Shown: positions 15,839 through 30,942, counted from the stretch's first letter. The stretch is 32,000 bases of DNA from Alkanindiges illinoisensis DSM 15370 (GCF_000619845.1 NZ_JHUX01000003.1:610064-642063), one strand, 5' to 3'. A program made the numbers and translations. The notes: generated by a model not told the origin, from the letters alone.

Positions 15839-17461
15839 ATGGCAGTTTCAGATGTTTTAGCAATCTTGCTCGGTGCAGGCTCCGCTGCTTCAGCACCGTC
15901 GCCTATCGTCGGGGCAGCTCAAGAAAGTATGGCGCATATGTATGACGCCGCTGCGCCATTTTCGCTAGGCACCCATCAAACCAAAAATAATAAGAAACGT
16001 ACCCGCAAGGAAATCATGACCAAATGGGAGCAAATGCTTAAGTTTGCCCCTATTGCTGAAAGTATGGGAATCCATAGCACCGCTGCACTGGGTGGTGATG
16101 AGCACACCAGCCAGCAAGTATTCATTAAGCCTGCTGAACGCCTGCAAAAAGCCGACAACCCTGTTTTAAAAGCACAGCTTGCCAAACTTGAAAAACGTAT
16201 CAAGCCGATGGAGCGGCTGATCAATCAGCATATTCTTAAACTGTGTTTTGATGCCTGCGGCTTTGGCGATTCCTATGCCCGTGTATATGGGAAAAAAGGC
16301 ATTGGCGTCGTGGATATGATGTGTAACGAATACACCTATCCACCGCTGGTTTTACCGTTTGAGCAGGGTAGTAAAACGCTGGTCTATCATTTGTTGGACG
16401 CCCGAAACTGGACGAATACCAGTTCAAAATTAGGGGCGCGACAAATGATCCGCATGAAAATGCCGCGGATTCTGCACGTTCCCCAGCATGAAATCATTGA
16501 AGGCGTGCTTGTTGCCAAGATGATGGAAGAGGACGACCCGGACAATTTGCCGCTTTTCCCAGCGCATGTGGGTGGCTCATTTTTAATTGCCATTGAAGAA
16601 ATTTTTGACAATGTGATTCGTGCGCTAGCGGCAATGAATACACAGCAGGTTGCTGATGCAGTCAACCAGATGTTTTTAACCATGAACATGGCCGGTATGC
16701 CACCGGCACAGCGTGAAGCCTACAAGCAAGGGCTTGAAGGCATGTTACGTGAGCATGAACAGTTTGTTAAGAATGCATTAGATGGCGGCGAAGCACTTTA
16801 CACCACGAAATACCACGTATTGCCAACATGGGATGAAAAGCAAATTTTAAACCCGATTGGCGATATCAAGGGCCAGCGTAGTACAGCCATTAATATTGAA
16901 ACTTTTATGATTGACGTACGCTTGCTTATGGGGGGCCTTGGTCTGGACCCGTCCATGGTAGGCTGGGCTGATATGTTATCCGGTGGAATAGGTGATGGTT
17001 CCGCGTCCCTGACGTATTCAAGCCAGGTGATGCGCCGTTCCATGATGATACGGCAGTCCTCAAGCCAAATGGTTAATGACTTGCTTAAAATTGACTGGGG
17101 CTATGCCTATAACGAAGATTTTGACAATGAACTGGATTATCCATGGCAAGTGGTCTTTCATTCTGATCAGACTGCAGCAGCCAATGAAATCCAGACGACC
17201 AAGCAAACCCGCATGAATACATTGCTGATTAAGACGCAGGTCATTACCGCGATTAAAGACGCAGGGCTTAATGAAGAAAATACCGCACTACTGTTAGAGC
17301 GTGACGGGGGGATGGATTACGACGAAGCCCAGAATCTGGCTAAAGATATTACCAGCGCCCGGGAAAAAGCCTTAGAGGATGGCCAAAATCCCAATGGCAA
17401 TCCACAGGATGACAACTTAAATCCTGAACCAGAAAATGACGACGAAGAGGACGGCATTTAA
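15839..17461 (+). CDS. Portal protein
   Basis: ~540 aa. The N-terminal region 'TRKEIMTKWEQMLKFAPIAESMGIHSTAAL' resembles the portal pattern seen in T4 gp20 (TReli..y..l......n.a...i..dai). The C-terminus is highly acidic (PEPENDDEEDGI). The track start is TTG 15827. ATG 15839 is preferred because it restores the 26-30 nt box-to-start spacing seen at the other copies. Confidence 0.65.
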   Translation: MAVSDVLAILLGAGSAASAPSPIVGAAQESMAHMYDAAAPFSLGTHQTKNNKKRTRKEIMTKWEQMLKFAPIAESMGIHSTAALGGDEHTSQQVFIKPAERLQKADNPVLKAQLAKLEKRIKPMERLINQHILKLCFDACGFGDSYARVYGKKGIGVVDMMCNEYTYPPLVLPFEQGSKTLVYHLLDARNWTNTSSKLGARQMIRMKMPRILHVPQHEIIEGVLVAKMMEEDDPDNLPLFPAHVGGSFLIAIEEIFDNVIRALAAMNTQQVADAVNQMFLTMNMAGMPPAQREAYKQGLEGMLREHEQFVKNALDGGEALYTTKYHVLPTWDEKQILNPIGDIKGQRSTAINIETFMIDVRLLMGGLGLDPSMVGWADMLSGGIGDGSASLTYSSQVMRRSMMIRQSSSQMVNDLLKIDWGYAYNEDFDNELDYPWQVVFHSDQTAAANEIQTTKQTRMNTLLIKTQVITAIKDAGLNEENTALLLERDGGMDYDEAQNLAKDITSAREKALEDGQNPNGNPQDDNLNPEPENDDEEDGI

Positions 17462-18113: not shown

Positions 18114-20063
18114 ATGCGCCGGAATATCGATATTTTCACCCAGACTCATGCACCGCATTCCAGCCGGTTTGTGGCAGGTTTTGATTCCATTAACAGCGGG
18201 TCCTGTGCAGTAGGTTTTATTGCTGGCCAATATCGCCGTATCCCGGCGCTTGTGGCTGAAACAGCGACCGATGATGACCAATGGCGAGTTGTTAATCTAA
18301 AAGGCGGTAAGGGCAATGAAGCGCATTTTGATGCGATTGCGGTACTGGGCGCGGTAGATGATCAACAGGCAGCTGATATGACGTTAATGCAGTTTGGCCG
18401 CCTATTTGATTCTGTGGCTATGGATGTGCTGACAACCAATACCAATGGCCTAATGCGCCATTTAGATACCAGCCACTACCACGCTAAACCCAGCACCATT
18501 GCCCCATGGCAACTTAAGGCCATGCAGGACGTGATTTGTGCTGAAAAACCTATGTGGGATGACATCAATCTGGTATCCCATAAAGGCCAAACCGCCAATT
18601 TGCTGCTGGATATGCAACGCCATGATGACCACGATGGGTTGTTATCCCAGTTTGACGGATTGCCAAATTTGCTTGAGCAGCTTGGCGTTGAAGAGCCGGG
18701 CTTTGATGCGCTCATTGTGCAGTATCAATATCTTGAAAAGCTGACCGCACAATTGCATACCGCTATGAAAAATGCGGGCAAGGCTGGTGTGCAAGTGGTG
18801 AATGTCACCGTTAGCAAGCCATTCAAGCGTAACAAAGTGGCGCAAGTTGCGGTGACTTACGATATGGCAGACGGCCAGAGCGTCACGATTCTCTTTCACA
18901 ACCCTGACAGCACACCGTCCAAACTGGCGCCAGCTGATACGCTCATTTCATGGAAAATCCAGATGAATAACCGTGATATTACTGGCGCTATTCAACCGAA
19001 CCAGGGTGAAGGTATTGCCTTACCAGTGCTGGCTGGCCGTATTCTAAAACTGGTCAATCAGAATAGTGACCGGTTTAAGCGCTACCAGGTTAAAAAAACA
19101 GAGCAGGCGCAGGCTTTGGCGGATGCCGAACAGCGTATCACTGATAAAACCGCCCTCGATAAAGCGCTGGACGACGAAATGACTGATTTACAGCAACAGA
19201 TTGATGCAGCCCATGAGCAGGCCAAGCAACAGCAGGAACTGGCTCAGCAAAATAGCGAAGTTCTTAAGGGGCTTATGGCTGATATTGCAGCAACTGCTGA
19301 TCTGGGTGAAGCCACTACCAAAAATTACTTCTTTAAAGAAAAAGAGGTGGATGGCACCAAGTTTCATTTGTCAGTAGACCCATTTGGTGATGGCCTGACG
19401 GTTTGTTTATCAATCATGCCTGCCACTGGCGGCGAGCAGACAGAAGAACAGGCCTTTACGCTAGAACAACTGCAAAACGGTGGTTTTGAGGAAGCTAAGG
19501 CCTATCTAAAAACACTGGATGAAAAGTTTAATCAGGCCGTGGTTGAGGATGATTCGATTCCTGCTGAAGATATTCAGTTTGTGAGAGATATCGAGGCAGG
19601 CACGGTAGACGGTCTGGCCGAAGATAATTTCAAGCGCTTATATGGTATTGCTCAGGAAACCAAAAACAATGGGGATGAGGAAACCGAAGGCGCAGCAGTT
19701 AGTGCTGCAACGGTGATGGCCGAGAAACTTAAACCTGTTGCAACTGAAAAAGGTATCTCGCTTGAGCGCCTAAATACCGCGATTGATGATGAAGATGTAC
19801 TGGAAATCCTAGATTCCATTGAAGCCTTGCAAGCTGCCCTTAATGCAGCACCTGAACCTGAGCCTGAACCAGCTGCTAACCCGGATCAGGAGTTTCTGCA
19901 AAACATCATTGCAGGCACTGTGGACGCCACAACTGTTGATATGGATCACATCATAGAACTGGGCGAGAAGTACCCAGACGATGCAGCATTCAATGCATTG
20001 TATGAGCAGGCTCTCAATGCGATTAACAAGGCTGAGCAAGAAGCCGCCAAGAGTTTGGGTTAA
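18114..20063 (+). CDS. Large acidic coiled-coil protein; candidate packaged accessory protein (DarA-like in size and position, unverified)
   Basis: 649 aa. A GFDSI motif sits 22 aa from the N-terminus, like the leader of 5170-5961. The central domain is paralogous to 6615-7148. It also has a Q/E/A coiled coil, a PEPEPEP linker, and two copies of a [QE]F[VL]..I.AGTVD module. There is no SD, but the start is supported by the box-to-ATG spacing. Confidence 0.6.
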   Translation: MRRNIDIFTQTHAPHSSRFVAGFDSINSGSCAVGFIAGQYRRIPALVAETATDDDQWRVVNLKGGKGNEAHFDAIAVLGAVDDQQAADMTLMQFGRLFDSVAMDVLTTNTNGLMRHLDTSHYHAKPSTIAPWQLKAMQDVICAEKPMWDDINLVSHKGQTANLLLDMQRHDDHDGLLSQFDGLPNLLEQLGVEEPGFDALIVQYQYLEKLTAQLHTAMKNAGKAGVQVVNVTVSKPFKRNKVAQVAVTYDMADGQSVTILFHNPDSTPSKLAPADTLISWKIQMNNRDITGAIQPNQGEGIALPVLAGRILKLVNQNSDRFKRYQVKKTEQAQALADAEQRITDKTALDKALDDEMTDLQQQIDAAHEQAKQQQELAQQNSEVLKGLMADIAATADLGEATTKNYFFKEKEVDGTKFHLSVDPFGDGLTVCLSIMPATGGEQTEEQAFTLEQLQNGGFEEAKAYLKTLDEKFNQAVVEDDSIPAEDIQFVRDIEAGTVDGLAEDNFKRLYGIAQETKNNGDEETEGAAVSAATVMAEKLKPVATEKGISLERLNTAIDDEDVLEILDSIEALQAALNAAPEPEPEPAANPDQEFLQNIIAGTVDATTVDMDHIIELGEKYPDDAAFNALYEQALNAINKAEQEAAKSLG

Positions 20064-20075
20064 GGGGGTAAAACG

Positions 20076-20420
20076 ATGTTGACTGCATTAGAAAAAGCCA
20101 AAGCCCTTAAAGAGTTTAGAGAATTGCGCCTTAAACTGGCTGGTGATGGATTAACCGCGCTGGACAAGGCCAAATCGTTAAAGCGCTTTCGTGAATTGCG
20201 TTTGTTGCTGGGTGGACAGAATCAACCAGAAGCACAGGAACCCGCCAATAATCCGCTGTACCAGTCCATTCTGGAAGGCCGGGAAGTCACACTAGAATTG
20301 CTGGAGCAGGTCAAGGCAGAGGCCGAAAAAGACTTGAACCATCCACAGCTGATTCCCGCTGTTCTTAAACTTAAAGAGCAGGTTGAACCATTACAGGTGC
20401 ATCAGAGTGAGGCGGCTTAA
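20076..20420 (+). CDS. Small helical protein with an internal 24-aa tandem duplication
   Basis: GGGGG lies upstream. LTALEKAKALKEFRELRLKLAG (aa 2-23) and LTALDKAKSLKRFRELRLLLGG (aa 26-47). Its stop abuts the ATG of the next gene. Confidence 0.65.
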   Translation: MLTALEKAKALKEFRELRLKLAGDGLTALDKAKSLKRFRELRLLLGGQNQPEAQEPANNPLYQSILEGREVTLELLEQVKAEAEKDLNHPQLIPAVLKLKEQVEPLQVHQSEAA

Positions 20421-23400
20421 ATGGTGTCGAAAACGGATAAAACCGCCTTAAATCAAATTGACGTCGTTGCAAATCCCATTGCAGCGATTGATGCGATGAT
20501 TGATGCGCTTAAGCACCAGCAGCACGAAAACTACGAGTTTTTAACGGGTGAACCGGTTGCATCCATCCAGTCCGGCCAGATTAAGCCTGATGAGAAGGGT
20601 CATTACATCAAGGCGGCTGTTAACTGGTTTAGGGAGTGGATGGACAAAAATAGCCATGGGCAGGAATTTGAAAATGTGCAGCTAGGAACAATCATTATTG
20701 CGCCTAGTGGCATTAAATCAGCCATGAGTCATAAACCCCACCCAATTGATGTTCAGGCGCTACCGGCCTTGCCTTTGATTATTGAAAAAGCTGTTGTTCT
20801 CAGTAGAACAATGGATGATATGGGCAAACCATTAGAAAATATTGTGGTCGCGGCACCCATCGAAATTGACGCCAAAAAATATTATATGGTTGTTCGTTTA
20901 AGACGGCACACTGAAGATAAAAACGATAGACCCCGCTTTTATACGCAAGCGGTTACTATTGCAGAGGACATAAAAAAAGGACACATCCCTTCAGACCAAG
21001 TGACTGGGCAAAATAAATTGCTTACTCAAAATGGAGGACGTGTCCGTTTATTAAATGTACTGTATAGCGCTCTCAGTGTCAATAATCCAGCGACCAGCAT
21101 TGTTACAGGCCGTACAAACACTGTAAAAACCCCAAAAGGCACCAAACTTGATACGGTTTTTGCACTGGTTGAAGCTGACAATGTAATTGCATCACACGAT
21201 AGCACTGGCGGGACTAATCCTAAATTTCCGCAAGAATTGCAGCCGCGTGACCGTAGCCGCGAAGCCAGCCAGACATGGGTGAAAAAAACAGCGGCCAATC
21301 TGGATCCTGATAGTCTGGGTAAAACCAGCCGTGCAGACACCGGTGCGCCGATTGTTGGTGATGACTTGATTGTTGAATCCGGGAACGGTCGCACCATGGC
21401 GATTCAATTAGCGTACGCACGTGGTACCGCAGAGGAATACCGCGCTTGGCTGGTTGATGAGGCAGAATACTTTGGATTTAAGCCTGAACAGGTTGAAGCC
21501 TTTAAGCAGCCTGTACTGGTGCGTATCCGTAAAACTGAGATTGACCGTGCCGCATTTGCAGTAGAAGCGAACCAGGATGATAAGCTGTCTTTGAGTGCCA
21601 CGGAACGCGCCAAGGCCGATGCTCGCCGTATTGATGACAATATGGCGATGCTATTTAACCCAAGCGAAGATGGGGATTTACTGGCGGCCAGTAACCAGAA
21701 ATTTATACAGGCTTTTTTACAGTCCATTGGTGATACCGAAGCTGCTCAGTATATTGGAACCGATGGCAAGCCAACGCAGGCACTAGTTTTACGCATTAAA
21801 GCAGCGGTATTTAGCAAGGCTTATAAGGATGACCGTCTTTTAGAGATGGTGGCAGACCAGACCAAGCCAGACTTAAAAAATATGCTGAATGCATTAAGTG
21901 TTGCGGCGCCCAAGTTTATTGAGGCCCAAGCCATTAGCCGGTTACAAACCGAAGATTTATCCAGTCAAATTGTTGATGGTATTGAAAGTGCCACTGACCA
22001 AAAGGTTATTGATGCGATTATTGCCGCTGCAAACGTGGTGATGACCGCAAAAAATGACAACCATGACGTGACCGAGTTTGTTAAGCAGCAAGGCCTGTTT
22101 GGTGATTTACCGGATGGTGTGGCAGAGCTGGCCGTATTCCTATCCAAAAATGCCAGCAGTGCCAAAAAGATGAGTCTGTTATTCAAAGCTATGGCCAGCT
22201 TTTTGGAAAAACAGGCAATTGACCAGAGTAACAATAGCCTGTTTGGTGATCCTGAGCCGCTGAGCATGCGAGAGGTCATTCAGCATGCTGTTGGTGTACT
22301 TGAGCAAGAATATGGCGATAAAGCCAATTTAAGCATGTTTGATGATTTAGGCTTTCTAGAGCCTAAGTTATTTGACCAGATTTTTAAGTCCTACGCCCGC
22401 ACTGGGGAATGGACACCAACAAAATATCTGGAGCAAATGGATGCGTTGCGTCGTATTTTCTTTGCAAACGGCTGGGGACGTGAAAGACGTACTAACGGCT
22501 TCATGATCAAGCCTTGTGGTGAACGCAAAGTACGTCTTATTAAATATGCCGATGATGATAAATTTTTTGTCAGCATCGTTGATTTAGATGAAAAATTAAT
22601 CACTGAAATTGTAGGTTGTGATAATAAGGCCATTCCTGAAATCATTGCTGAAATTAATAAATATCTTAATGAAGATCAGCAACTATCATTAGAAAAGTCT
22701 GGCTTTGATTCGGTTGATGGCAATGATCAGATTGCTATGGTGCCTAAGGTTGATGCTAGCAATACATGGATGAATGGGCAAATCATTCCATGGTCAGAAA
22801 ATCCTGAGACTGATTTTGCGCATTCCATGAAATTGCCATCTTCCGGTCAGCTTGGTGATAAGGTTTGTTTTCATGTCTGGGCAAATGAAAGTAAAGAGTC
22901 AAGGGTGAGAATAGATGCATTTATTGCAGATATTAAGTTTAAGACCAGTAAAGTATGGTATGGACTGGCCATGCGCATTGCTGATACGCGATTTGCGACA
23001 CTGATTTACTTACCTAGTGGGACTTTTGATATTTTAACCAGTCATGAAAGTGTAGACGGTTATGATGCCTTACTCACCATGGAAGAGATATGTCGGCATA
23101 ACTGTTTGCGTACTGATATTGATAAGCAAGCCCATGAAGCCGCCACGTCACCTTACAATGATTTGCCAGAGCCGACTGAAGCACAAAAAATTTCAGGGGA
23201 TTATGTGAAGGGCAAGCTATCAATTGCGGGTGTAGATATAGCGATTGAAAATCCGGCTGGTTCTACACGCTCAGGCGTTGACGCCAGTGGAAAGGCTTGG
23301 CAAACCACGATGAAGCATCACTATGGCTACATTGAAAATACCATGGGTGCCGATGGTGATGAGCTGGATGTATTTGTTAAAACTGGTTTGAATGAATATA

Positions 23401-24005
23401 CCGGCATTGTGTATGTCATCCGCCAGCTTGATCCAGAAAGCCTAGATTTTGATGAACACAAGATCATTATTGGCGCGTCTACATTAGAAGAAGCCCAGCA
23501 AATTTATTTGTCTAATTATGAATCGGGCTGGCAGGGGATGGGCAGTATTGAAACGCTATCCATTGAAGATTTTAGGAACAGGCTGGGTAAGACCTGGACG
23601 CAGTTTGATTCGATTGGCCAGCACGTTGAGCCAATCACTGTTCTGAATCAGCTTATTGGCATCTTGCAGGCCAAAAAAATCACTGACCAGCAGCAGTTAA
23701 TGGAACTGCGCGAGGAAATTCGCACCAATGAGCAGACCGCCCGTTATTTGATGGGTGGCCGTAAGGGATTGTGGGGCCGCACAACCAATGCGGACAATAA
23801 ACGCAGTGCTGAATTGTCAAATTTACGCCTGAAATACCAGCTGGCACTGAATCATTTTATTGCCCTGTATTCCATTGACAAGCGGGAAGCCCGTACCTTT
23901 AATTTACGCCATGGCGTCAATTCTTTTGATTCCATCGAAAATGACCAGATACACCCAGTATTTCATGCGATTTATGGGCATGGAAACCACTGGAACAGCG
24001 CATAA
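20421..24005 (+). CDS. Polyvalent protein: unknown N-terminal domain + ParB/DdrB-like domain + helical region + pyrophosphatase-signature domain
   Basis: 1,194 aa. ParB-superfamily motifs are 'ELQPRDRSR' and 'VESGNGRTMAIQLAY' (GxxR box). 'DGDELDV' at 23352-23372 fits the family-I PPase signature D-[SGDN]-D-[PE]-[LIVMF]-D-[LIVMGAC] as I recall it. Three FDS[IV] motifs separate the segments. Confidence 0.7.
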   Translation: MVSKTDKTALNQIDVVANPIAAIDAMIDALKHQQHENYEFLTGEPVASIQSGQIKPDEKGHYIKAAVNWFREWMDKNSHGQEFENVQLGTIIIAPSGIKSAMSHKPHPIDVQALPALPLIIEKAVVLSRTMDDMGKPLENIVVAAPIEIDAKKYYMVVRLRRHTEDKNDRPRFYTQAVTIAEDIKKGHIPSDQVTGQNKLLTQNGGRVRLLNVLYSALSVNNPATSIVTGRTNTVKTPKGTKLDTVFALVEADNVIASHDSTGGTNPKFPQELQPRDRSREASQTWVKKTAANLDPDSLGKTSRADTGAPIVGDDLIVESGNGRTMAIQLAYARGTAEEYRAWLVDEAEYFGFKPEQVEAFKQPVLVRIRKTEIDRAAFAVEANQDDKLSLSATERAKADARRIDDNMAMLFNPSEDGDLLAASNQKFIQAFLQSIGDTEAAQYIGTDGKPTQALVLRIKAAVFSKAYKDDRLLEMVADQTKPDLKNMLNALSVAAPKFIEAQAISRLQTEDLSSQIVDGIESATDQKVIDAIIAAANVVMTAKNDNHDVTEFVKQQGLFGDLPDGVAELAVFLSKNASSAKKMSLLFKAMASFLEKQAIDQSNNSLFGDPEPLSMREVIQHAVGVLEQEYGDKANLSMFDDLGFLEPKLFDQIFKSYARTGEWTPTKYLEQMDALRRIFFANGWGRERRTNGFMIKPCGERKVRLIKYADDDKFFVSIVDLDEKLITEIVGCDNKAIPEIIAEINKYLNEDQQLSLEKSGFDSVDGNDQIAMVPKVDASNTWMNGQIIPWSENPETDFAHSMKLPSSGQLGDKVCFHVWANESKESRVRIDAFIADIKFKTSKVWYGLAMRIADTRFATLIYLPSGTFDILTSHESVDGYDALLTMEEICRHNCLRTDIDKQAHEAATSPYNDLPEPTEAQKISGDYVKGKLSIAGVDIAIENPAGSTRSGVDASGKAWQTTMKHHYGYIENTMGADGDELDVFVKTGLNEYTGIVYVIRQLDPESLDFDEHKIIIGASTLEEAQQIYLSNYESGWQGMGSIETLSIEDFRNRLGKTWTQFDSIGQHVEPITVLNQLIGILQAKKITDQQQLMELREEIRTNEQTARYLMGGRKGLWGRTTNADNKRSAELSNLRLKYQLALNHFIALYSIDKREARTFNLRHGVNSFDSIENDQIHPVFHAIYGHGNHWNSA
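21141..21640 (+). other. ParB-superfamily (DdrB-type) domain within 20421-24005
   Basis: 'FALVEADNVIASHD...FPQELQPRDRSREASQ...GAPIVGDDLIVESGNGRTMAIQLAY...PVLVRIRK...RAAFAVEANQDDKLSLSATERAKADA'. The boundaries are approximate. Confidence 0.55.
23163..23570 (+). other. Inorganic-pyrophosphatase-like domain within 20421-24005
   Basis: 'LPEPTEAQKISGDYVKGKLSIAGVDIAIENPAGSTRSG...HYGYIENTMGADGDELDVFV'. The sequence block resembles one that I recall in phage/ICE polyvalent proteins. The boundaries are approximate. Confidence 0.5.
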
Positions 24006-24067: not shown

Positions 24068-27000
24068 ATGTCTGCGGTGGTTAATTTAAGTCAATTTGTG
24101 GTTACACCCTTAACTGTAATGACTGCTATTGATGCAATGATAGCGGTCTTACAGCAAGCGAATGGTCAGCATATCCCGCTGTATCAGTTTAGCGAAAAGA
24201 TAACGCCTGCTGCCCGCCAGCGTGCCAACAATGAGGCAGTTGCATTACTGCGGGCTGTCCAAAATGACGATGTAAAGCAACTTACACCAGAACAAAAACT
24301 CATTTTATCCCGCTATACCGGCACGGGTGGCAACCTGATTGGCGAAGATGGCTTAAAGGGCAGTGCGTACGAGTACTACACACCAATGCCAGTGGCACAA
24401 GCCATGTGGGACCTATTAAAAGAACAGGGCTTTGCTGGTGGGAACGTATTAGACCCCAGCTCAGGCACTGGTATTTTTGCTGGTTGCGCCCCTGCCGATA
24501 TCCTCATGCACAGTGTTGAACTCTCTGATATATCCGGCAATATCAATAAACTGGTCAATGATAGTGATAAGCATGCAACCACAGTGGCCCCGTTTGAACA
24601 GGTCGCGGCCAGCACTGATGATGAAATTTTTGATGCAGTCATTACCAATGTGCCGTTTGGCACCAATGCCGACCGTGGCAAAAACAAGAACCTGGACAAT
24701 AAATATCAGCGTGACACGCTGGAAGAATATTTTATTAAGCGGTCGCTGGATAAATTGCGTCCCAATGGTTTAGCCGCCTTTATCGTTCCTACCAAAATTT
24801 TAGACAACAGCAGCTTTAAAAAGTTTCGTCAGCTGATTTTATTGCGTGCCGATCTAGTCGGCGCTTACCGCCTGCCCAATAAAGTGTTTGACGCCACTGG
24901 AGCAGATGTCACGACCGATATCATTATTCTTAAAAAATTTAACCAGGATGTCAGCGAGAAAATCACCAACCTGTATGAAAACGGTGGACTGCAAACCCTG
25001 CAAGCCGCACGGGTGCTAGATACCGATATTGTGGCCGGGCATTACTTTAAAACCTATGGCAAGTCTTACGTGCTGGGTGAAACCGTCAAGGGCAAAGGCC
25101 GTTTTGGTGAAGTGGAACGGGTAGTTAATGATGATTCATTGGCCAATATCCTAAAACTGGTGAAGCGTTTTCCTGAATCACGTATTGACTATAACTTGCT
25201 GGAAGTTACCCCCGAATTGACCGAAATTACTTTTAATGACGGTGATATTCGCCGTATCGATGGCGCCACATTCCAGATGAAAAACGGCGAGTGGCAACAG
25301 GTGATTGAACGCTTTAACGTGGATGAATCCTTATTTGCAACGCCATACGCTTTATTGTCTGGCAAAGGGGATTATCCAAAGCTGGTTGAATATGTTGCTT
25401 ATTGCGCGGCCAATGCCAAGCGTCCGCCAGAATGGCTATCTATCTTTACACAAGAGGTCGAAAAGAACGCCGCTACATTTGGCTTCTGGTTATGTGTGTT
25501 GTCAGTACTGGATGCCCTAAAAACTGATAATGGCACATTTCCCTATGCAGAGCGCTATTCGGCACTAACCGCGCAAATGGTCGGTTATGCAGATGCCTAC
25601 CTTAAAAAACGCTACAAACCCAAAAATCAGGATTATAAACGCTATCTGCACACCATCAGCATTGCCTTTGATAGCAACATGCCTGATGGTATTTCACGAT
25701 TCTGGCGCGGTGATACCAGTCAACTGGCAGCCGTACAGCCACTGCATACCCAAGCTGCTTATGAAAATGCGGTGTACCGAGGTATTGCAGAAAACTGGCA
25801 AGTCGATGTAGCTGTCATTCAGCAAAGCAATCCTGATTTTGACCCAATGACTGATGACAATTACTGTATCAATCAGGATGGCAGCAAAGTCACGTTAAAG
25901 CGCGACTATTATGTTGGCAACTATCAGCAGTTTTTAACCCGGATTAACAGCCAGATTGACGCAGCAACGGATCCTGTCATTAAGGAAAAACTGATTCGGC
26001 AGAAACTGGCCGCTGATGCCATGATTCAGGCAATCGATGTTTGTAAGCTCAACTATGACCTAATGGCCAGCACCATACCGATTGAAATCAAGTATCGCTA
26101 CTTTTCAGAATTTATTGATGACAAGGTACTGATTGATGCAGACCATCGGCTAGTTTTGGATGAAAAACCGGATTCTGTTATTGATCTGGTCAAATACCGT
26201 TTAAGCGGCAGTAAGGCACTGGAAACCGGCAAGATGGATGAGGGCAATAAGGCGCTGCGCTACTTTATGCTCAACCGGATTTTTAACTCCATCAACAACA
26301 ACCAGCGTCTTTATGTGAAAACTGAGGACAACATCAACAAGGATACCAAAGCCAAGCTGCTTAAAATCCTGACCGATTATTACAATACCTTGAATGTCAG
26401 TTTTGATGCCTGGTTGAAATCCAATGATGAGTTCATGGCCCAGTTGGATCAGCAATTTAATGCCCCTGAAAACAAGGTTTTTCCGGTGCAACTGGATGAT
26501 TCACCATTAACGATTGATGGCTTTAATCCCAAAAGAGAAGGTTTTATAGCATTAAACGGCTACCAGAATGAGGAAATTCGCCGGCTGTCACGCCATTTTG
26601 CGGGTATGTGTGGTTTTGACGTGGGGCTGGGTAAAACCCTAACCGCGCTGGCTGCCATGCAGAATATGCATAATATTGGCATTAAAACCCGTACGTTTGT
26701 AGTGGTTCCCAACCATACCATCAGTAAGTGGTTTAACGATGTCAAAATGGCTTATGACTACGTAGACGATGTGCTGGTGATTGGCAGTAATCAGGGTAAA
26801 CAGGACGCCGTAGACTCCAAGTTTAATGCAGCAGATTTTGCAGCACTGACCAAGCCGGAAGGGAAGCATTATCGAAAAATCCTGATGACCGTGGATGCAT
26901 TCAATATGATTCCGCTGCGTCAGGCGACCATTGAAACCCATTTTTACCAGACTGAAGGTATTGCCACCGACCGCAAGCAGGACCGCGAAAAGCAGGACGG

Positions 27001-30000
27001 TGATTTAAGTAACCGCATCAAGAAAATCAACAAGTATGAAAGCAAGTTGCCCTATTTTGAGGATATGGGCGTTGATTCACTGGTATTTGATGAAGCCCAG
27101 CTATTCAAGAATGGCAAGGCTGGCGGCGGCCAATATGACCGTATCAAAGGCCTGTCATTGCTGGCCGAGAGTGCTTTATCGGCGCGTGCAATCAGCGCGG
27201 CCATTAAATCCTGGTATATCCGTGGCCGTAACGGTGAATTGAATGATGGCGTAGTCTTGCTGACTGCAACGCCATTTACTAACTCGCCGGTTGAGATTCT
27301 AACCATGCTGTCACTGGCAGTCGGTGATAAGGAAGCCATGCGCGAACTGGCGGGTACTTCCATTGCCAGCGTTGATGATTTCTTAAGTACCTTTGCCAAT
27401 ATTGACCAGATTGAGCAGGAAAATATTGTCGGTGATCTGGTATCAGTTGATACTTTTACGGGCTTTAAAAACGTGCAGTTATTGAAGGATGGCATTCACA
27501 AGATTGCTAATATCCAGACCGCCCGGGAGCGTGGCCTTAAAATTCCTGATGAAGAAAATCATACCGTGGTCATTGACCTGGTGGATGACGACAAGGCAAC
27601 CCTAAACCAGATGAAAGGGTTTTATGCACTGGCCAAGGAAATGATTAACGGCGGTGGTGTGATTGCCGATAAAGATACCTTTGAGGCCTATGAAGCCTAT
27701 AAGGAAATGCTTGGTGAAACGGATGAGCTACTGGCTCACCCGTTCAACCTGATTGCCCGCATGTCTGATGTGATCATGGCCGGTAGTGAAATGGGCCTCA
27801 TGCGTATTGTACCCGTTGATTTTGCCCCTGATCAGCTGGAAGCCGCGCGCAAATTGGCTGACCAGTTTAATGCCAAGAAAATCAGCATTAAGACAACCCG
27901 CCGTTTTCCGGGCGTTGATAGCGAACTAATGACAGTCAAAATGATACAGGACAATCAAGGCGAGCTAATGCCACAGTTTACTATAGGCTGCCGTGTTGAT
28001 CTGGATGATCATAATTCGCGGTTAATCCTAAATGTGGATGATGCTGGCGTCGTCGCGCAGCTGATGGAAATGATTGATAAGGCAGGCCTACAGGTCCAGC
28101 CCAAGCTATCAGCTAAAGTTTCTGCCATGGTTGAAAACTATAAGGTTGAGCAGAGTACGCCAAAGCATCAGGGCCATGCCAAACAGCTTATTTTCTGCGA
28201 CAACCTGGCGATGCAGCATGTAATCAAGCGGGCATTGGTTGCTTACTGTGGGGTGAAATCCAGCCAGATTGCCATTATCAATGCGCAAACTCTACCAGAT
28301 GGCAGCAAGGGCAGTCCTGATACAGAGCACATGCAGGAAGTGCAGGACAAGTTTGCCAGCAATGAGTTTACAACCGTCATTGCCAATAAAAAGGCTGAAA
28401 CCGGTATTGATTTGCAGATTGGTACACAGGCCATCCACCACTTAACAACGGGCTGGACACCAGACAGCTTACAGCAGCGTAATGGCCGTGGCGTACGTCA
28501 GGGCAATAAGCAGTCCAGCGTGGCAATTTACCATTACAATGCCAATGGCACCTTTGATGAGTATAAGCAGCGCCTGATTGCTGGCAAGGCTGACTGGATT
28601 GACCAGTTGATGCAAAAGGATTCTGTTGTATCTGGAACCCTGAATGTGAGCCAGGAACTCAGTAAACAGGACTATGAGGACCTGATTAATGCTGATAGCC
28701 CTGAACAAATTGCTGCACTATTGCAGGCAAAATCTATTCGGGAACAGGCCGAGCGTGCTGCACTGGTTGCCTCCAGAACCCGCTTGCTATATGACAACAT
28801 GATCAAGGCCAAGAAACGCCCTAAACCCAGCATTGAAGGGCAAGTACGTCAGATTATGGAGGTCGATGCCAAACGGCTAGGGGAACTGATCAAGAAGCGC
28901 GACAAGGCGGCCAAGCCTGAGGTTATTCAGCGTTACACCGACCAGATCAACCAGATTGCCCAGCGCTATGATGGCTGGTTCGATGGTGAGCTGACCAGTG
29001 ATATGGTGATTAAGGGCATTGAGCGAAAACGGCAATATAACCGTAGCCCAAGTTTTAGTGAATATGATATTTACCGTGAAATGCGGACTGGAAGCCATGA
29101 AATGTCACGCTGGATCCAGACCAATGCCGACACCCTGACCAATGATGTATTTAACCGTGCCCGTAGTGTGGTGAGCACAGCAGATAACATGATTCGTGCC
29201 ACTGAAGAATCATTCTTGAATTATCAGGATAATGGTTTTAGTGAGGCTGATAAACAGGCCATTTTAACCGGAGAGGCCGTTTTAGATGATTTGGGCGTGC
29301 TTTGGTATGCAGGCGAGTACGTTAAGGCCATTAAAGAAAATGGCAAAACCGTTTATGGCTATGTGAAGATTGCTGAACTTAGTGATTATGGCTTTAAATT
29401 TGGTTTTATCGGTAAGGAAATCGGTAGAACTGATACCTGCCAGAAACTAAGCCCGGATGATAAGGCCGCTGCCATTGAATATATGGTGGCCGAGGATATG
29501 GCCGAGTGTAACACCAAAGAAATTTTTGATATCAGTGTTGCTAAGCCATTTTACGCCAGTGTTTTTCCAGAAATTTACACCATTTTGGCGGAACGTCTGG
29601 CCGGTGCGCTTCAAGAATGGAATGAGCGGACTACCCAGTATTTTGCCCGCAATCTGGTGCACCGTGCGACTAAGCGGCGCTATTGGGCTGAAGAGTTTTT
29701 ACCAGAGCTAAGGTATGATAATCCCGATATTGTTAAATCTTATAACCTGGTATTTGATATTGAGGCATTTGAAGTTAATCCGCTCAATCGCAGGCCTATG
29801 GCGGTAATCCGTAATAAGAACCTAAGGCTTTATCAAAACATCCCAATAACCCATGCCTCAGATTCTGAATTTTTTGAAAATGAACTGCTGCCTTATCTGG
29901 AAGGTGAGGCTATAGAAGTAAAAATGGATGTAGACACAGCATTTAATTTATTGAAAAAACTGCTAGGAACATCACGCCTGTTTGATATGGCATTAACCCG

Positions 30001-30484
30001 GGCCGGTTTTACCACGGCTGAATTTCAACAGTTGTATGTTGACGGGATTAGTAAGGCTGATATTCCGCAATATGTTAAAAAAGCAATTGATCAGGAAATT
30101 GGGCACGTCATCAATAACCTTGATGAAGTGGTTGGCTGGTTTATGGTGAGCGAGGGTTATAGACATATCCGGCAACGGATTAAAATCCTGCCCGAACCAG
30201 GTGCACCTGAAGCAGCGGCGGCTGATCTGATGGAGCAGGCCAAGCGGGTAGCGATTAAAAATACCAAGGATGTACCCGTCATTGGCTTAAAATCAGTGGT
30301 GATCGGCAGGGATGGTAATAAGCTGTATGAAAACAAGGAATCATTAAAGGCTACGGTGGACTATGCCTACTGGGCAAAACGTCCAAGTATGTGGATTATT
30401 GACCTGGAATCGTTTGCCAAGCTGATTCAACAGCCGTGGTACGATTCAACCCAGATTGAAATTGTTGAGGCAAAATACAGATGA
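24068..30484 (+). CDS. Giant N6-adenine DNA methyltransferase + SF2 (SNF2/DEAH-like) helicase fusion, P1 DarB-like
   Basis: 2,138 aa; GAGG lies upstream. MTase motif I is VLDPSSGTG (24446-24472) and motif IV is ITNVPFG (24641-24661). The helicase Walker A is GLGKT (26624-26638), with DEAQ (27089-27100), LLTATP (~27257-27274) and motif VI QQRNGRGVRQG (28472-28504). Confidence 0.8.
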   Translation: MSAVVNLSQFVVTPLTVMTAIDAMIAVLQQANGQHIPLYQFSEKITPAARQRANNEAVALLRAVQNDDVKQLTPEQKLILSRYTGTGGNLIGEDGLKGSAYEYYTPMPVAQAMWDLLKEQGFAGGNVLDPSSGTGIFAGCAPADILMHSVELSDISGNINKLVNDSDKHATTVAPFEQVAASTDDEIFDAVITNVPFGTNADRGKNKNLDNKYQRDTLEEYFIKRSLDKLRPNGLAAFIVPTKILDNSSFKKFRQLILLRADLVGAYRLPNKVFDATGADVTTDIIILKKFNQDVSEKITNLYENGGLQTLQAARVLDTDIVAGHYFKTYGKSYVLGETVKGKGRFGEVERVVNDDSLANILKLVKRFPESRIDYNLLEVTPELTEITFNDGDIRRIDGATFQMKNGEWQQVIERFNVDESLFATPYALLSGKGDYPKLVEYVAYCAANAKRPPEWLSIFTQEVEKNAATFGFWLCVLSVLDALKTDNGTFPYAERYSALTAQMVGYADAYLKKRYKPKNQDYKRYLHTISIAFDSNMPDGISRFWRGDTSQLAAVQPLHTQAAYENAVYRGIAENWQVDVAVIQQSNPDFDPMTDDNYCINQDGSKVTLKRDYYVGNYQQFLTRINSQIDAATDPVIKEKLIRQKLAADAMIQAIDVCKLNYDLMASTIPIEIKYRYFSEFIDDKVLIDADHRLVLDEKPDSVIDLVKYRLSGSKALETGKMDEGNKALRYFMLNRIFNSINNNQRLYVKTEDNINKDTKAKLLKILTDYYNTLNVSFDAWLKSNDEFMAQLDQQFNAPENKVFPVQLDDSPLTIDGFNPKREGFIALNGYQNEEIRRLSRHFAGMCGFDVGLGKTLTALAAMQNMHNIGIKTRTFVVVPNHTISKWFNDVKMAYDYVDDVLVIGSNQGKQDAVDSKFNAADFAALTKPEGKHYRKILMTVDAFNMIPLRQATIETHFYQTEGIATDRKQDREKQDGDLSNRIKKINKYESKLPYFEDMGVDSLVFDEAQLFKNGKAGGGQYDRIKGLSLLAESALSARAISAAIKSWYIRGRNGELNDGVVLLTATPFTNSPVEILTMLSLAVGDKEAMRELAGTSIASVDDFLSTFANIDQIEQENIVGDLVSVDTFTGFKNVQLLKDGIHKIANIQTARERGLKIPDEENHTVVIDLVDDDKATLNQMKGFYALAKEMINGGGVIADKDTFEAYEAYKEMLGETDELLAHPFNLIARMSDVIMAGSEMGLMRIVPVDFAPDQLEAARKLADQFNAKKISIKTTRRFPGVDSELMTVKMIQDNQGELMPQFTIGCRVDLDDHNSRLILNVDDAGVVAQLMEMIDKAGLQVQPKLSAKVSAMVENYKVEQSTPKHQGHAKQLIFCDNLAMQHVIKRALVAYCGVKSSQIAIINAQTLPDGSKGSPDTEHMQEVQDKFASNEFTTVIANKKAETGIDLQIGTQAIHHLTTGWTPDSLQQRNGRGVRQGNKQSSVAIYHYNANGTFDEYKQRLIAGKADWIDQLMQKDSVVSGTLNVSQELSKQDYEDLINADSPEQIAALLQAKSIREQAERAALVASRTRLLYDNMIKAKKRPKPSIEGQVRQIMEVDAKRLGELIKKRDKAAKPEVIQRYTDQINQIAQRYDGWFDGELTSDMVIKGIERKRQYNRSPSFSEYDIYREMRTGSHEMSRWIQTNADTLTNDVFNRARSVVSTADNMIRATEESFLNYQDNGFSEADKQAILTGEAVLDDLGVLWYAGEYVKAIKENGKTVYGYVKIAELSDYGFKFGFIGKEIGRTDTCQKLSPDDKAAAIEYMVAEDMAECNTKEIFDISVAKPFYASVFPEIYTILAERLAGALQEWNERTTQYFARNLVHRATKRRYWAEEFLPELRYDNPDIVKSYNLVFDIEAFEVNPLNRRPMAVIRNKNLRLYQNIPITHASDSEFFENELLPYLEGEAIEVKMDVDTAFNLLKKLLGTSRLFDMALTRAGFTTAEFQQLYVDGISKADIPQYVKKAIDQEIGHVINNLDEVVGWFMVSEGYRHIRQRIKILPEPGAPEAAAADLMEQAKRVAIKNTKDVPVIGLKSVVIGRDGNKLYENKESLKATVDYAYWAKRPSMWIIDLESFAKLIQQPWYDSTQIEIVEAKYR
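24305..24940 (+). other. SAM-dependent N6-adenine methyltransferase domain
   Basis: 'YYTPMPVAQAMWDLL...VLDPSSGTGIFA...DAVITNVPFG...NGLAAFIVP'. The order of motif I then motif IV, with the NxPF catalytic variant, is typical of amino-MTases. The boundaries are approximate. Confidence 0.7.
26552..28600 (+). other. SF2 helicase core (two RecA-like lobes separated by a ~280-aa insert)
   Basis: N-lobe ~26552-27337 (GLGKT, DEAQ, TATP). C-lobe ~28181-28600 (KQLIFCDN..., TGIDLQ, QQRNGRGVRQG). Confidence 0.7.
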
Positions 30485-30942
30485 GCCGCATTACCTACCT
30501 AATCCCTGATCGTGCGGCACTGGCTGAGGTGACGGCTGGCATTAAAGCCAGCCTGACCGATAAGGGAATTGAACCAGCCAATATGCCTAAGGTCATTACT
30601 GATACATTTTTTCGTAATGCGGCGCGGCTAAGTGCCCGTGATATTGATTTCTGGCTAGGCTTTGGCGGGTATTTGCCAGCGGTTGAATGGGTTATTGCCC
30701 AGCAAAGCGGGGAAGGCGAAGAAGAGTTTTATGCCCGCACCCAATATCCTAAAAATGTGGTTGAGGCCTACAGTGTACCTGAGGATGATTTAGCAACCCT
30801 TGCAGCTGCTGATCTGTATATGCAGCTTCACCGGGCTACCACACCAGTTGCAACAACAGTCTGGCCATTAAATGAAGAGGAAGGCCAATATATTGACCTT
30901 GCCCAGTTTGAGGCGCGGCTCAATGGAACCGTGCGCCTTTAG
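30481..30942 (+). CDS. Hypothetical protein translationally coupled to the MTase-helicase gene
   Basis: 153 aa, with an ATGA stop/start overlap at 30481-30484. I see no recognisable motif. Confidence 0.6.
   Translation: MSRITYLIPDRAALAEVTAGIKASLTDKGIEPANMPKVITDTFFRNAARLSARDIDFWLGFGGYLPAVEWVIAQQSGEGEEEFYARTQYPKNVVEAYSVPEDDLATLAAADLYMQLHRATTPVATTVWPLNEEEGQYIDLAQFEARLNGTVRL

What the first reader, a model, noticed from the sequence alone, without database searches (positions are those of the whole stretch)
24068..30484. 2,138-aa MTase-helicase fusion with ~1,200 aa of unassigned sequence
The catalytic motifs are clear.
- MTase: VLDPSSGTG and NVPF.
- Helicase: GLGKT, DEAQ, TATP and QQRNGRGVRQG.

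They account for well under half of the protein. Three regions have no motif I recognise.
- ~540 aa between the MTase and helicase (25000-26550).
- A ~280-aa insert between the two helicase lobes (27340-28180).
- The last ~630 aa (28600-30484).

The NVPF variant of motif IV, and the absence of any FDS[IV] site, also set it apart from its neighbours. It may enter the head by binding a partner rather than through a cleavable tag; in P1, DarB needs DarA/Hdf/Ulx. The unassigned regions are candidates for new anti-defence or targeting domains.
Basis: partly seen in the sequence, partly recalled or inferred. Interest (0 to 1): 0.7.

Follow-up and report, generated by a model that had tools for sequence, protein, structure and literature searches.

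The report
DarB-type antirestriction giant in P1-like prophage
This 2,138-residue gene is a new member of the phage P1 DarB family, a methylase-helicase protein packed into the phage head; its three "unassigned" regions are standard but structurally uncharacterised parts of that family, not additions peculiar to this phage.

Summary
The ORF (24068-30484, +, 2,138 aa) and every quoted motif are real. The protein is identical to an NCBI entry, "N-6 DNA methylase [Alkanindiges illinoisensis]", and is a DarB homologue. It sits in a P1-like head/tail module inside one dar cluster: DarA-like, DdrA-like, DdrB-like, DarB, then a probable Ulx counterpart.

The three unassigned regions are not peculiar to this protein.
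- All are collinear with P1 DarB.
- Regions 1 and 2 align in about 120 of 121 homologues.
- NVPF and the motif spacing are family-wide.
- Every homologue with a locatable motif VI carries roughly 580-790 aa after it, apart from one truncated sequence.
- The C-terminal module evolves fastest and was found only at the ends of DarB-type proteins.

AlphaFold2 folds the bridge and the C-terminus confidently (pLDDT about 84). Foldseek finds no significant match in PDB, or in BFVD for the C-terminus. These are therefore uncharacterised family modules, not new add-ons.

One thing is new here. The first ~38 residues form an exchangeable leader. It resembles the neighbouring DdrB-like N-terminus, and in relatives it is replaced by a DdrA-type leader or by whole DdrB modules. 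This fits N-terminal capsid targeting as shown for P1 DarB.

Verdict: new member of a known kind; moderate-to-low interest.

The parts
24068..30484 (+). darB-like gene: 2,138-aa LPD36-MTase-SNF2 'dyad' protein
   Evidence: ORF. 100% identical to NCBI 'N-6 DNA methylase [Alkanindiges illinoisensis]'. Matches P1 DarB and PHROG DarB families.
24068..24181 (+). Residues 1-38: variable N-terminal leader (amphipathic helix ...TAIDAMIAVLQQ... followed by YQF); candidate capsid-targeting signal
   Evidence: Only about 15% identity among homologues. Resembles the DdrB-like N-terminus, sharing AIDAMI at the same position; 23 of 5000 shuffles reach the score. Replaced by a DdrA-type leader in P0010/P0012. 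P1 DarB's N-terminal 30 residues are a capsid-targeting signal (PMC9024508).
24182..24967 (+). Residues 39-300: LPD36-like helical N-domain (YTGTGG = GxGU motif), YYTP motif, and gamma-class N6-adenine MTase core (VLDPSSGTG, NVPF)
   Evidence: Pfam N6_Mtase and Eco57I above their cut-offs. PDB type I M subunits match at E 2e-8. Motif descriptions from PMC5512222. 64% / 53% / 40% identity to the close subfamily (g1), the larger subfamily (g2) and P1 DarB.
24968..25297 (+). Residues 301-410: conserved post-MTase module (two beta-hairpin/sheet elements plus helices)
   Evidence: Included in the 37%-identity BLAST block with P1 DarB, residues 50-409. AF2 secondary structure. 55% / 41% / 32% identity.
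25298..26392 (+). Residues 411-775: mostly helical 'bridge' between MTase and ATPase, with invariant W456, W546, Y570, D613/G617 (DYYVGNY) and K641/Q645
   Evidence: Aligned in 119 of 121 homologues. Bridge profile aligns to P1 DarB 280-839 at probability 99.1%. AF2 pLDDT mostly 85-95. No Foldseek PDB match at E<0.001. Invariant columns listed.
26393..27337 (+). Residues 776-1090: SNF2 ATPase lobe 1 (Q motif GYQN, GLGKT, DEAQ, TATP)
   Evidence: Pfam SNF2-rel_dom at 36 bits against a cut-off of 24.9. Family profile matches ISWI, SMARCAD1 and DDM1 chains.
27338..28177 (+). Residues 1091-1370: inter-lobe insert (SWI2/SNF2-type helical protrusions plus extra sequence)
   Evidence: Aligns collinearly with P1 DarB 1128-1376. 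Aligned in 120 of 121 homologues. 47% / 26% / 22% identity. Multihelical inserts are described for this clade (PMC5512222). No structure was predicted here.
28178..28627 (+). Residues 1371-1520: SNF2 ATPase lobe 2 (KQLIFCD, QQRNGRGVRQG)
   Evidence: Helicase_C at 23.1 bits, just under its 23.5 cut-off, plus PF28555 Helicase_dom. The most conserved block in the protein, 73% / 57% / 39% identity.
28628..30481 (+). Residues 1521-2138: fast-evolving C-terminal module. It comprises a long-helix bundle, a small beta-barrel (~1737-1793), alpha and alpha/beta subdomains, and a conserved tail motif K-E-x-L-K...W...W-I-I-D.
   Evidence: AF2 pLDDT 84.1, with most blocks above 90. No Foldseek match in PDB or BFVD. 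hhalign to the larger subfamily 98.6%, to Rb1 100%, to P1 DarB 93.9%. Only DarB-type hits among 1.84 billion representatives. 20-30% identity even within the close subfamily.
30481..30942 (+). 153-aa ORF, translationally coupled (ATGA overlap); probable Ulx counterpart
   Evidence: A conserved 147-154 aa gene follows DarB immediately in L004 and L006-L009, with motifs GIDFWLGFGGYLPAVEW and DDLATLVAAD. Related to the ORF downstream of Rb1's DarB (E 1e-5). hhalign to P1 Ulx is collinear over 115 columns at E 0.004 but only 8% probability. BLASTP to Ulx is negative.
20421..24005 (+). 1,194-aa DdrB-like polyvalent protein (LPD3 + ddrB-ParB + InPase)
   Evidence: Pfam. 42% identity to P1 DdrB over 405 aa, E 1e-90. 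Fused in frame to DarB in P0002/P0003.
20076..20420 (+). 114-aa DdrA-like ORF with a twice-repeated LxKAKxLKxFRELR leader
   Evidence: Sits between darA and ddrB, as ddrA does in P1. Its leader is found fused to DarB homologues P0010-P0015, with 0 of 2000 shuffles reaching the score. There is no significant sequence similarity to P1 DdrA.
18114..20063 (+). 649-aa DarA-like internal head protein
   Evidence: Pfam DarA_N, E 5e-28. NCBIfam anti_RE_DarA match, below its cut-off. BLASTP to P1 DarA, E 8e-15.
6615..7148 (+). 177-aa Hdf-like protein
   Evidence: PHROG 'Hdf-like antirestriction', E 8e-35. Pfam DarA_N at 31.9 bits. Weak BLAST match to P1 Hdf.
15827..17461 (+). Portal protein; marks the head module that holds the dar cluster
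   Evidence: PHROG portal, E 2e-166. The same portal-to-DarA-to-DarB order is seen in L007-L009.

Best explanation
This is the DarB of a P1-like temperate myovirus, a prophage in Alkanindiges illinoisensis (Moraxellaceae). DarB is a large internal head protein that is ejected with the DNA and protects it in cis from host restriction.

Shown here:
- Homology to P1 DarB along the whole length.
- Intact catalytic motifs, conserved across the family, in both the N6-adenine methyltransferase and the SNF2 ATPase.
- Location in a head-gene cluster with homologues of DarA, DdrB and Hdf, a DdrA-position gene, and a probable Ulx counterpart.
- The three 'unassigned' regions are family-wide, collinear, confidently folded modules with no significant Foldseek match in PDB (or BFVD for the C-terminus).

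Inferred mechanism:
1. The first ~38 residues form an exchangeable leader that docks the protein into the procapsid on the DarA/Hdf-based scaffold. As in P1, this likely needs the DdrB-like and Ulx-like proteins. The protein is packaged uncleaved.
2. On infection it leaves with the DNA. The SNF2 motor translocates on double-stranded DNA, carrying the methyltransferase.
3. This either modifies adenines or clears and blocks type I restriction complexes.

The bridge (301-775) and the inter-lobe insert most likely couple the two enzymes mechanically. The fast-evolving C-terminal 620 aa most likely mediates lineage-specific protein contacts, with a head partner such as the Ulx-like protein or with a host target.

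The confidence of 0.8 refers to the identification as a DarB-family, head-packaged antirestriction protein. The mechanistic steps are less certain.
For: Identity:
- BLASTP to P1 DarB aligns 50-409 at 37% (E 9e-60) and 775-1590 at 26% (E 5e-68).
- Xanthomonas phage Rb1's DarB-type protein aligns over 38-1759 at 33%.
- PHROG phrog_11801 gives E=0, and the DarB-like phrog_10089 also matches.
- 733 homologues were found, many of them 2,100-2,300 aa.

Architecture:
- The spacings motif IV to Walker A (659 here, 677 in P1) and Walker A to motif VI (616 here, 651 in P1) are conserved.
- NVPF is present in all 14 sequences printed by the motif script and is a nearly invariant column in the alignments.
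- Nearly all homologues carry about 580-790 aa after motif VI.

Unassigned regions are homologous to P1 DarB or its relatives. Catalytic columns are invariant or nearly so across 35-81 homologues.

Context: DarA_N, LPD3 + ddrB-ParB + InPase, Hdf-like, portal, sheath and PmgG-like genes. The same synteny is seen in five related loci.

Functional link to DdrB: in the closest relative the DdrB-like module is fused in frame to DarB.

Leader: it is variable, resembles the neighbouring DdrB-like N-terminus (23 of 5000 shuffles reach the score), and is swapped for a DdrA-type leader in P0010/P0012. The P1 DarB N-terminal 30 residues are sufficient for capsid targeting (PMC9024508).

Folded modules: pLDDT 83.8 and 84.1.
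Against: - No experiment exists on this protein. Packaging, ejection and antirestriction are all inferred from P1.
- The mechanism of P1 DarB itself 'has not been defined' (PMC11109961).
- Methylation by any DarB is a prediction from sequence analysis (PMC5512222); I found no paper that demonstrates it.
- The leader similarity to the DdrB-like protein is modest (p about 0.005). It is not significant in three other loci or in P1.
- Homology of the last ~450 aa to P1 DarB rests on one hhalign result (93.9%) and a short shared tail motif. HMMER supports only the first ~180 positions.
- The 153-aa ORF's link to Ulx is weak.
- The inter-lobe insert was not modelled.
Confidence: 0.8

Rival explanations
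1. One reading: one or more of the unassigned regions is a new, self-contained anti-defence or targeting domain grafted onto a DarB chassis.
For: The regions have no Pfam, PDB or BFVD match yet fold confidently. The C-terminus evolves much faster than the enzymatic cores, as expected for an arms-race interface.
Against: All three regions are collinear and of conserved length in the family, P1 DarB included. Nothing is inserted relative to relatives. The C-terminus never occurs outside DarB-type proteins. In relatives, new modules are added at the N-terminus (LPD3, ParB, NUDIX) or as inteins, not in these regions.
Confidence: 0.12
2. It is a prophage-borne defence gene (a DISARM, BREX or MADS-like methylase plus SNF2 helicase) that protects the lysogen, not a virion antirestriction protein.
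For: There are domain-level matches to MAD2, DrmD, PglX and ZorD models.
Against: All scores are far below family cut-offs, for example 41 bits against 720 and 40 against 610. The matches cover single domains only. The gene sits between portal and head genes, inside a DarA/DdrB cluster that is syntenic in six loci. No partner genes of those defence systems lie nearby.
Confidence: 0.04
3. It is a DarB homologue whose protective action is mechanical rather than by methylation. The SNF2 motor strips or stalls type I restriction complexes, or helps draw in DNA. The methyltransferase fold serves as a SAM-dependent DNA clamp.
For: The ATPase lobes are the most conserved blocks. P1 Dar protection acts in cis on the DNA that is ejected with the proteins (PMC5512222, PMC12810830).
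Against: Motifs I and IV and the YYTP motif are nearly invariant, which argues for retained catalysis. From my own recall, N-[ILV]-P-[YF] variants are active in the Erm/KsgA adenine methyltransferases.
Confidence: 0.2

Closest known systems
Phage P1 DarB (AAQ14093.1, 2,255 aa)
   Same: Same domain order and motif spacing: leader, LPD36, NVPF methyltransferase, bridge, SNF2 lobe 1, insert, lobe 2, ~650-aa C-terminus. A small gene follows immediately downstream. DarA, DdrA, DdrB and Hdf partners are present. The setting is a P1-like myovirus head/tail module.
   Different: Only 26-37% identity in the alignable cores, about 12% in the bridge and about 16% in the C-terminus. Here the darA-ddrA-ddrB and darB-ulx units form one contiguous cluster beside the portal, whereas they are two separate loci in P1. 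The DdrB-like partner carries an InPase domain rather than the metallopeptidase that PMC5512222 proposes for P1 DdrB. The host is a Moraxellaceae species, and the gene lies on a 1.78-Mb contig rather than a plasmid prophage.
Xanthomonas phage Rb1 gp58 ('chromatin remodeling complex ATPase', 2,238 aa) and the larger subfamily from Burkholderia, Halomonas and Collimonas prophages
   Same: Collinear over essentially the whole length. BLASTP covers 38-1759 at 33%. The C-terminal profile aligns to Rb1 1606-2235 at probability 100%. The downstream small ORF is related.
   Different: These proteins have a 55-150 aa longer N-terminus. Their C-terminal sequence has diverged to 10-15% identity.
Polyvalent DarB fusions (P0002/P0003, 2,800-3,060 aa; P0011-P0015)
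   Same: 46-64% identical over the DarB body. The flanking genes are the same.
   Different: In those proteins the LPD3 and ddrB-ParB modules (with or without NUDIX), or a DdrA-type leader, are fused to the N-terminus. Here they are separate genes.
Methylase/SNF2 components of defence systems (DISARM DrmD, BREX PglX, MADS MAD2; type I HsdM)
   Same: They share the gamma-class N6-adenine methyltransferase fold and the SNF2-type ATPase lobes.
   Different: Similarity is at domain level only and far below family thresholds. The architecture and genomic context differ.

Membership tests
DarB family (P1 DarB-like methylase-helicase dyad; phrog_11801 / phrog_10089) | Significant full-length sequence similarity to P1 DarB or the family profile | tested here: met
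   BLASTP E 5e-68 and 9e-60. phrog_11801 E=0 over residues 28-1573. Profile alignments extend to the bridge (99.1%) and the C-terminus (93.9%).
DarB family | Architecture LPD36 (GxGU) - EcoKI/TaqI-like N6A methyltransferase - SWI2/SNF2 ATPase with helical inserts (Iyer et al. 2017) | tested here: met
   YTGTGG, YYTP, VLDPSSGTG and NVPF are present. SNF2-rel_dom scores above its cut-off. Inserts follow motif III and lie within lobe 2. LPD36 itself has no model in the libraries, so it was judged by motif only.
DarB family | Encoded among late/virion genes together with other Dar components (DarA, Hdf, DdrA, DdrB, Ulx) | tested here: met
   DarA_N, ddrB-ParB and Hdf-like proteins and the portal lie in the same + strand module. 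The DdrA and Ulx counterparts are assigned by position and weak similarity only.
DarB family | Packaged into the capsid via an N-terminal targeting sequence and ejected with the DNA | not testable with these tools
   Only indirect evidence: the N-terminal leader is variable and exchangeable. The precedent is P1 (PMC9024508).
DarB family | Protects incoming DNA in cis from type I restriction (EcoB/EcoK-type) | not testable with these tools
   No functional data exist. The host's restriction-modification content was not examined.
SWI2/SNF2 ATPases (Pfam PF00176) | Score above the Pfam gathering threshold, and motifs I, II, III and VI present | tested here: met
   36.0 bits against 24.9. GLGKT, DEAQ, TATP and QQRNGRGVRQG are present. 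Helicase_C scores 23.1, just under its 23.5 cut-off.
N6-adenine DNA methyltransferases (Pfam PF02384 / PF07669) | Score above the gathering threshold; SAM motif I and catalytic motif IV present | tested here: met
   45.1 bits against 20.4, and 42.4 against 25.3. Motif IV is NVPF rather than NPPF, as it is throughout the DarB family. Enzymatic activity was not tested.
DISARM / BREX / MADS defence components | NCBIfam equivalog score at or above the cut-off, with partner genes nearby | tested here: not met
   40.9 bits against 720 (MAD2), 40.2 against 610 (DrmD) and 30.5 against 500 (PglX). No partner genes are present.

The most novel reading that the evidence does not exclude
Dar cargo proteins are addressed to the procapsid by short, interchangeable N-terminal leader modules. 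At least two types exist: an amphipathic-helix-plus-YxF type shared here by DarB and the DdrB-like protein, and a DdrA-type twin-helix type. Evolution shuffles these leaders between cargo proteins. Separately, the structurally unprecedented, fast-evolving C-terminal ~620 aa of DarB is the specificity module that engages a lineage-specific partner, either the coupled Ulx-like protein or a host defence target.
Probability: 0.3. Interest if true: 0.55.

Novelty: new member of a known kind. Interest (0 to 1): 0.33.

Why it matters
DarB was among the first antirestriction factors described, yet its mechanism is still undefined (PMC11109961). About two thirds of the protein has no assigned fold.

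This window does not add a new kind of system. It does give a clean, divergent member from Moraxellaceae in which the whole dar set is contiguous. It also shows three things about the family:
- The uncharacterised regions are family-wide, well-folded modules.
- The C-terminus is the fast-evolving part.
- The N-terminal ~40 residues are a swappable leader.

These points define concrete constructs for working out how such large proteins are loaded into capsids, and for using phage heads as protein-delivery vehicles.

Tried and rejected
- A megablast of the gene against 50,697 phage records found nothing. Only protein-level search works.
- The first C-terminal alignment (A1), made from a fragment with no conserved anchor, was mis-registered by MAFFT and discarded. 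It was rebuilt with a 40-aa anchor after a local test.
- Foldseek of both models against PDB, and of the C-terminus against BFVD, gave no hit at E<0.001. The weak Tudor/Sm-like hits to the small beta-barrel (probability about 0.2) were not accepted.
- A full-length family profile searched against PDB sequences matched only the methyltransferase and SNF2 lobe 1.
- BLASTP of the 153-aa ORF against P1 Ulx was negative. The profile comparison gave only a weak collinear match.
- The leader-sharing idea was tested in four other DarB/DdrB pairs (L006, L007, L008 and P1) and was not significant there. It is therefore reported only as an observation in this window.
- Piya et al. 2017 (PMC6011833) is not held, so claims about P1 assembly order are cited second-hand from PMC9024508 and PMC12810830.
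The precomputed Pfam lists for 120 homologues were used instead.
- A defence-system reading was rejected on scores and context.

Full report
**Observation**

The ORF at 24068-30484 (+) is real: ATG start, 2,138 codons. GAGG lies 7 nt upstream of the ATG, and the TGA stop overlaps the ATG of the next gene.

All quoted motifs are present:
- VLDPSSGTG at residues 127-135
- NVPF at 194
- GLGKT at 853
- DEAQ at about 1008
- TATP at about 1066
- QQRNGRGVRQG at 1468

Pfam assigns only N6_Mtase/Eco57I (99-299), SNF2-rel_dom (842-1017) and a borderline Helicase_C (1415-1479). A newer precomputed Pfam adds only PF28555 'Helicase_dom'. So the statement that most of the protein is unassigned is correct.

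FDS[IV] is absent from this ORF. It occurs ten times in four other + strand ORFs and never in the three minus-strand reading frames.

**What it is**

The protein is 100% identical to an NCBI protein named 'N-6 DNA methylase [Alkanindiges illinoisensis]', on a 1.78-Mb contig. That points to a chromosomal prophage in a member of the Moraxellaceae.

The window is a P1-like myovirus structural module:
- tail sheath, tube and baseplate genes
- portal (15827-17461)
- a PmgG-like head morphogenesis protein
- an Hdf-like protein (6615-7148)
- a DarA_N protein of 649 aa (18114-20063)
- a 114-aa ORF in the position of ddrA
- a 1,194-aa LPD3 + ddrB-ParB + InPase protein, 42% identical to P1 DdrB over 405 aa

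The subject ORF follows directly.

It matches P1 DarB in two BLASTP blocks: residues 50-409 at 37% (E 9e-60) and 775-1590 at 26% (E 5e-68). It matches the DarB-type protein of Xanthomonas phage Rb1 over residues 38-1759 at 33%. It matches PHROG phrog_11801 with E=0 over residues 28-1573. The large protein database holds 733 homologues, many of them 2,100-2,300 aa.

**Are the three 'unassigned' regions special?** No.

*Length and spacing.* The distance from motif IV to Walker A is 659 aa here, 677 in P1, 641 in Rb1 and 643-649 in others. The distance from Walker A to motif VI is 616 here and 651, 617 and 611-612 in the same proteins. Nearly all homologues with a locatable motif VI carry about 580-790 aa after it. 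NVPF is present in all 14 sequences the motif script printed, and its four residues are nearly invariant columns in the alignments.

*Coverage.* Query positions ~40-1550 align in 119-121 of 121 homologues by BLASTP. That span includes the bridge and the inter-lobe insert. Only the last ~550 aa drop out, aligning in about 35 close relatives.

*Profile comparisons.*
- A profile of the bridge (296-835) aligns to P1 DarB 280-839 with hhalign probability 99.1%, E 1.3e-18, over 488 columns.
- The C-terminal profile of the close subfamily aligns with that of the larger subfamily at 98.6%, E 1e-15, over 532 columns.
- The C-terminal profile aligns with Rb1 at 100%.
- It aligns with P1 DarB 1519-2254 at 93.9%, E 1.5e-7. 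HMMER supports only the first ~180 positions of that match.
- A short terminal motif, K-[DE]-x-[IL]-K...W...W-[IV]-[IV]-[DE], is visible from this protein through to P1 DarB.

*The insert.* It aligns collinearly with P1 DarB 1128-1376. It corresponds to the multihelical inserts that Iyer et al. describe as typical of SWI2/SNF2 ATPases, including those of polyvalent proteins (PMC5512222).

*No independent occurrence.* phmmer of residues 1520-2138 against 1.84 billion representative proteins returned ten hits. All were C-termini of DarB-type proteins, gene fragments, or one in-frame deletion derivative.

The reservation is that these parts are conserved but uncharacterised, not 'known'.

**What the regions look like**

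AlphaFold2 with 35-row alignments gave confident models.
- Bridge, 296-835: mean pLDDT 83.8.
- C-terminus, 1480-2138: mean pLDDT 84.1, with most 10-residue blocks above 90.

Residues 301-410 contain two small beta elements. Residues 411-775 are mostly helical. The C-terminus is a bundle of long helices, then a small beta-barrel (~1737-1793), then helical and alpha/beta subdomains.

Foldseek found no match at E<0.001 in PDB for either model, and none in BFVD for the C-terminus. A full-length family profile searched against PDB sequences matched only type I M subunits and SNF2 lobe 1. These are real folded modules without a significant Foldseek match in the libraries searched.

**Evolutionary rates**

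Identity to the query, by region, from one MAFFT alignment. g1 is the close subfamily, g2 the larger subfamily.

| Region | g1 | g2 | P1 DarB |
|---|---|---|---|
| LPD36 + methyltransferase | 64% | 53% | 40% |
| Post-MTase module | 55% | 41% | 32% |
| Bridge | 38% | 23% | 12% |
| SNF2 lobe 1 | 60% | 41% | 33% |
| Inter-lobe insert | 47% | 26% | 22% |
| SNF2 lobe 2 | 73% | 57% | 39% |
| C-terminus | 20-30% | 10-15% | 15-17% |
| First 38 residues | 15% | 13% | 14% |

The catalytic columns of both enzymes are invariant or nearly so. That argues that both activities are under selection.

**The N-terminal leader**

The conserved body starts at about Y39 (Y-Q-F-x-E-K-x-T...RQRAN). Upstream of it, homologues show three states.

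(a) A short amphipathic helix followed by YxF, as here.
- This protein: ...PLTVMTAIDAMIAVLQQANGQHIPLYQF.
- The DdrB-like neighbour: ...VANPIAAIDAMIDALKHQQHENYEF.
- The two share AIDAMI at the same position. Local alignment score is 34, against 19.6 ± 3.9 for shuffles; 23 of 5000 shuffles reach it.
- The DNA differs at three synonymous sites, so this is not a recent duplication.

(b) A DdrA-type twin-helix leader. P0010 and P0012 begin with ~46 aa highly similar to the N-terminus of this window's 114-aa ORF. The score is 117 against 31.5 ± 5.6 for shuffles, and 0 of 2000 shuffles reach it. The same leader heads an InPase protein in L009.

(c) Whole DdrB-type modules fused in frame. P0002 is 64% identical over the DarB body, and its residues 251-906 are 60% identical to the DdrB-like neighbour.

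[quoted passage not shown] Packaging there is hierarchical: Hdf and DarA first, then DdrA, DdrB, DarB and Ulx (PMC12810830).

The simplest reading is that residues 1-38 are an exchangeable capsid-addressing leader. This is inference. The DarB/DdrB leader similarity was not significant in three other loci or in P1.

**The downstream gene**

The 153-aa ORF (30481-30942) is translationally coupled to DarB. A 147-154 aa homologue follows DarB immediately in all five related loci examined. It is related to the ORF after Rb1's DarB (E 1e-5). It aligns collinearly but weakly with P1 Ulx: hhalign E 0.004, probability 8%. BLASTP to Ulx is negative. It is a probable, unproven Ulx counterpart.

**Mechanism**

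*Shown:* DarB-family membership by sequence, architecture and context; intact catalytic motifs; folded conserved modules.

*Inferred:* capsid loading through the leader plus Dar partners; packaging uncleaved (no FDS[IV] site; P1 DarB is listed at 251 kDa among virion proteins, PMC9024508); ejection with the DNA; and ATP-driven translocation on dsDNA coupled to adenine methylation or to displacement of type I restriction complexes, as proposed by Iyer et al..

The P1 mechanism is explicitly undefined (PMC11109961). The bridge and insert are best read as coupling scaffolds. The fast-evolving C-terminus is best read as a lineage-specific protein-interaction module.

**Rivals**

A defence-system reading (DISARM, BREX or MADS) is rejected. 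Its scores are an order of magnitude below the cut-offs, they cover single domains only, and the gene lies among head genes.

A 'novel grafted domain' reading is unlikely for the reasons above. It is not excluded for the C-terminus as a specificity module.

**Verdict**

This is a new, divergent member of the known DarB family. Interest is moderate to low for this locus itself. There is some added value in the leader-swapping pattern and in the family-wide map of uncharacterised modules.

Noticed in passing
window ORFs 71-1975, 5170-5961, 18114-20063, 20421-24005: The tetrapeptide FDS[IV], often preceded by G, occurs 10 times in these four + strand ORFs and never in the three minus-strand frames. 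By my rough estimate, chance would give about 0.2. It is a likely prohead-protease cleavage motif. Site 762 of the DdrB-like protein would leave an N-fragment of about 85 kDa, reminiscent of P1 DdrB being processed to 76 kDa. DarA-like relatives have AGFDAV or AFDGA at the same N-terminal position.
   Followed up: partly
window 20421-20545 and 24068-24195: The N-termini of the DdrB-like protein and of DarB share the hexapeptide AIDAMI at matching positions, followed by L..QQ and Y[EQ]F. 23 of 5000 shuffles reach the alignment score. The codons differ at 3 synonymous sites.
   Followed up: yes
window 20076-20420; P0010-P0015; L009:3572-5542: The ~46-aa twin-helix N-terminus of the 114-aa DdrA-position ORF (LEKAKALKEFRELR... 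repeated, ending LLGG) recurs as the N-terminus of DarB homologues, of polyvalent DarB fusions and of an InPase protein in other phages. It behaves as a portable leader module.
   Followed up: yes
L004:1318-10500 (P0002) compared with window 20421-30484: In the closest relatives the DdrB-like module and DarB form one 2,800-3,060-aa polyvalent protein lacking the InPase domain. Here they are two genes 62 nt apart. This is a gene fusion or fission event linking the two functions.
   Followed up: yes
window 30481-30942: A 153-aa ORF with an ATGA overlap onto darB belongs to a well-conserved family that always follows DarB (motifs GIDFWLGFGGYLPAVEW and DDLATLVAAD). It has no Pfam, PHROG or NCBIfam hit. 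It is a probable Ulx counterpart.
   Followed up: partly
window 20421-24005, residues 920-1054: The DdrB-like protein ends in a polyvalent-protein 'InPase' (inorganic pyrophosphatase-like) domain, Pfam E 1.5e-46. PHROG labels the same stretch 'endolysin' or 'DarB-like'. Iyer et al. propose a metallopeptidase domain at the C-terminus of P1 DdrB instead.
   Followed up: partly
homologues P0015, P0018, P0093, P0097, P0113: Several DarB homologues carry intein or LAGLIDADG domains (PF14528, PF14890) and are 300-400 aa longer between motif IV and motif VI. In four of the five, the script's Walker A pattern was not found.
   Followed up: no
P0123 (634 aa, metagenomic): This is a ddrB-ParB/DarB fusion in which the sequence jumps from MTase motif I (...GGNVL) straight to the last ~57 residues of DarB. 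It is an in-frame deletion derivative or an assembly artefact that keeps the conserved C-terminal tail.
   Followed up: partly
window 3562-3849 and 12384-12818: Two small ORFs share a near-identical stretch (MNTTKILGEAVGVQ[WY]Q...IGRFKRGEVGR). It forms the N-terminus of the first ORF and starts at residue 19 of the second. One lies just upstream of the tail sheath gene, the other upstream of the 495-aa ORF at 12818. They look like a duplicated small gene in the tail module.
   Followed up: no
L006 (relative of P0005) compared with the window: A 62%-identical relative lies on a 74-kb contig with Rep3 and ParA genes, so it is probably a P1-style plasmid prophage. The window's phage sits on a 1.78-Mb contig next to UmuDC-like genes.
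   Followed up: no
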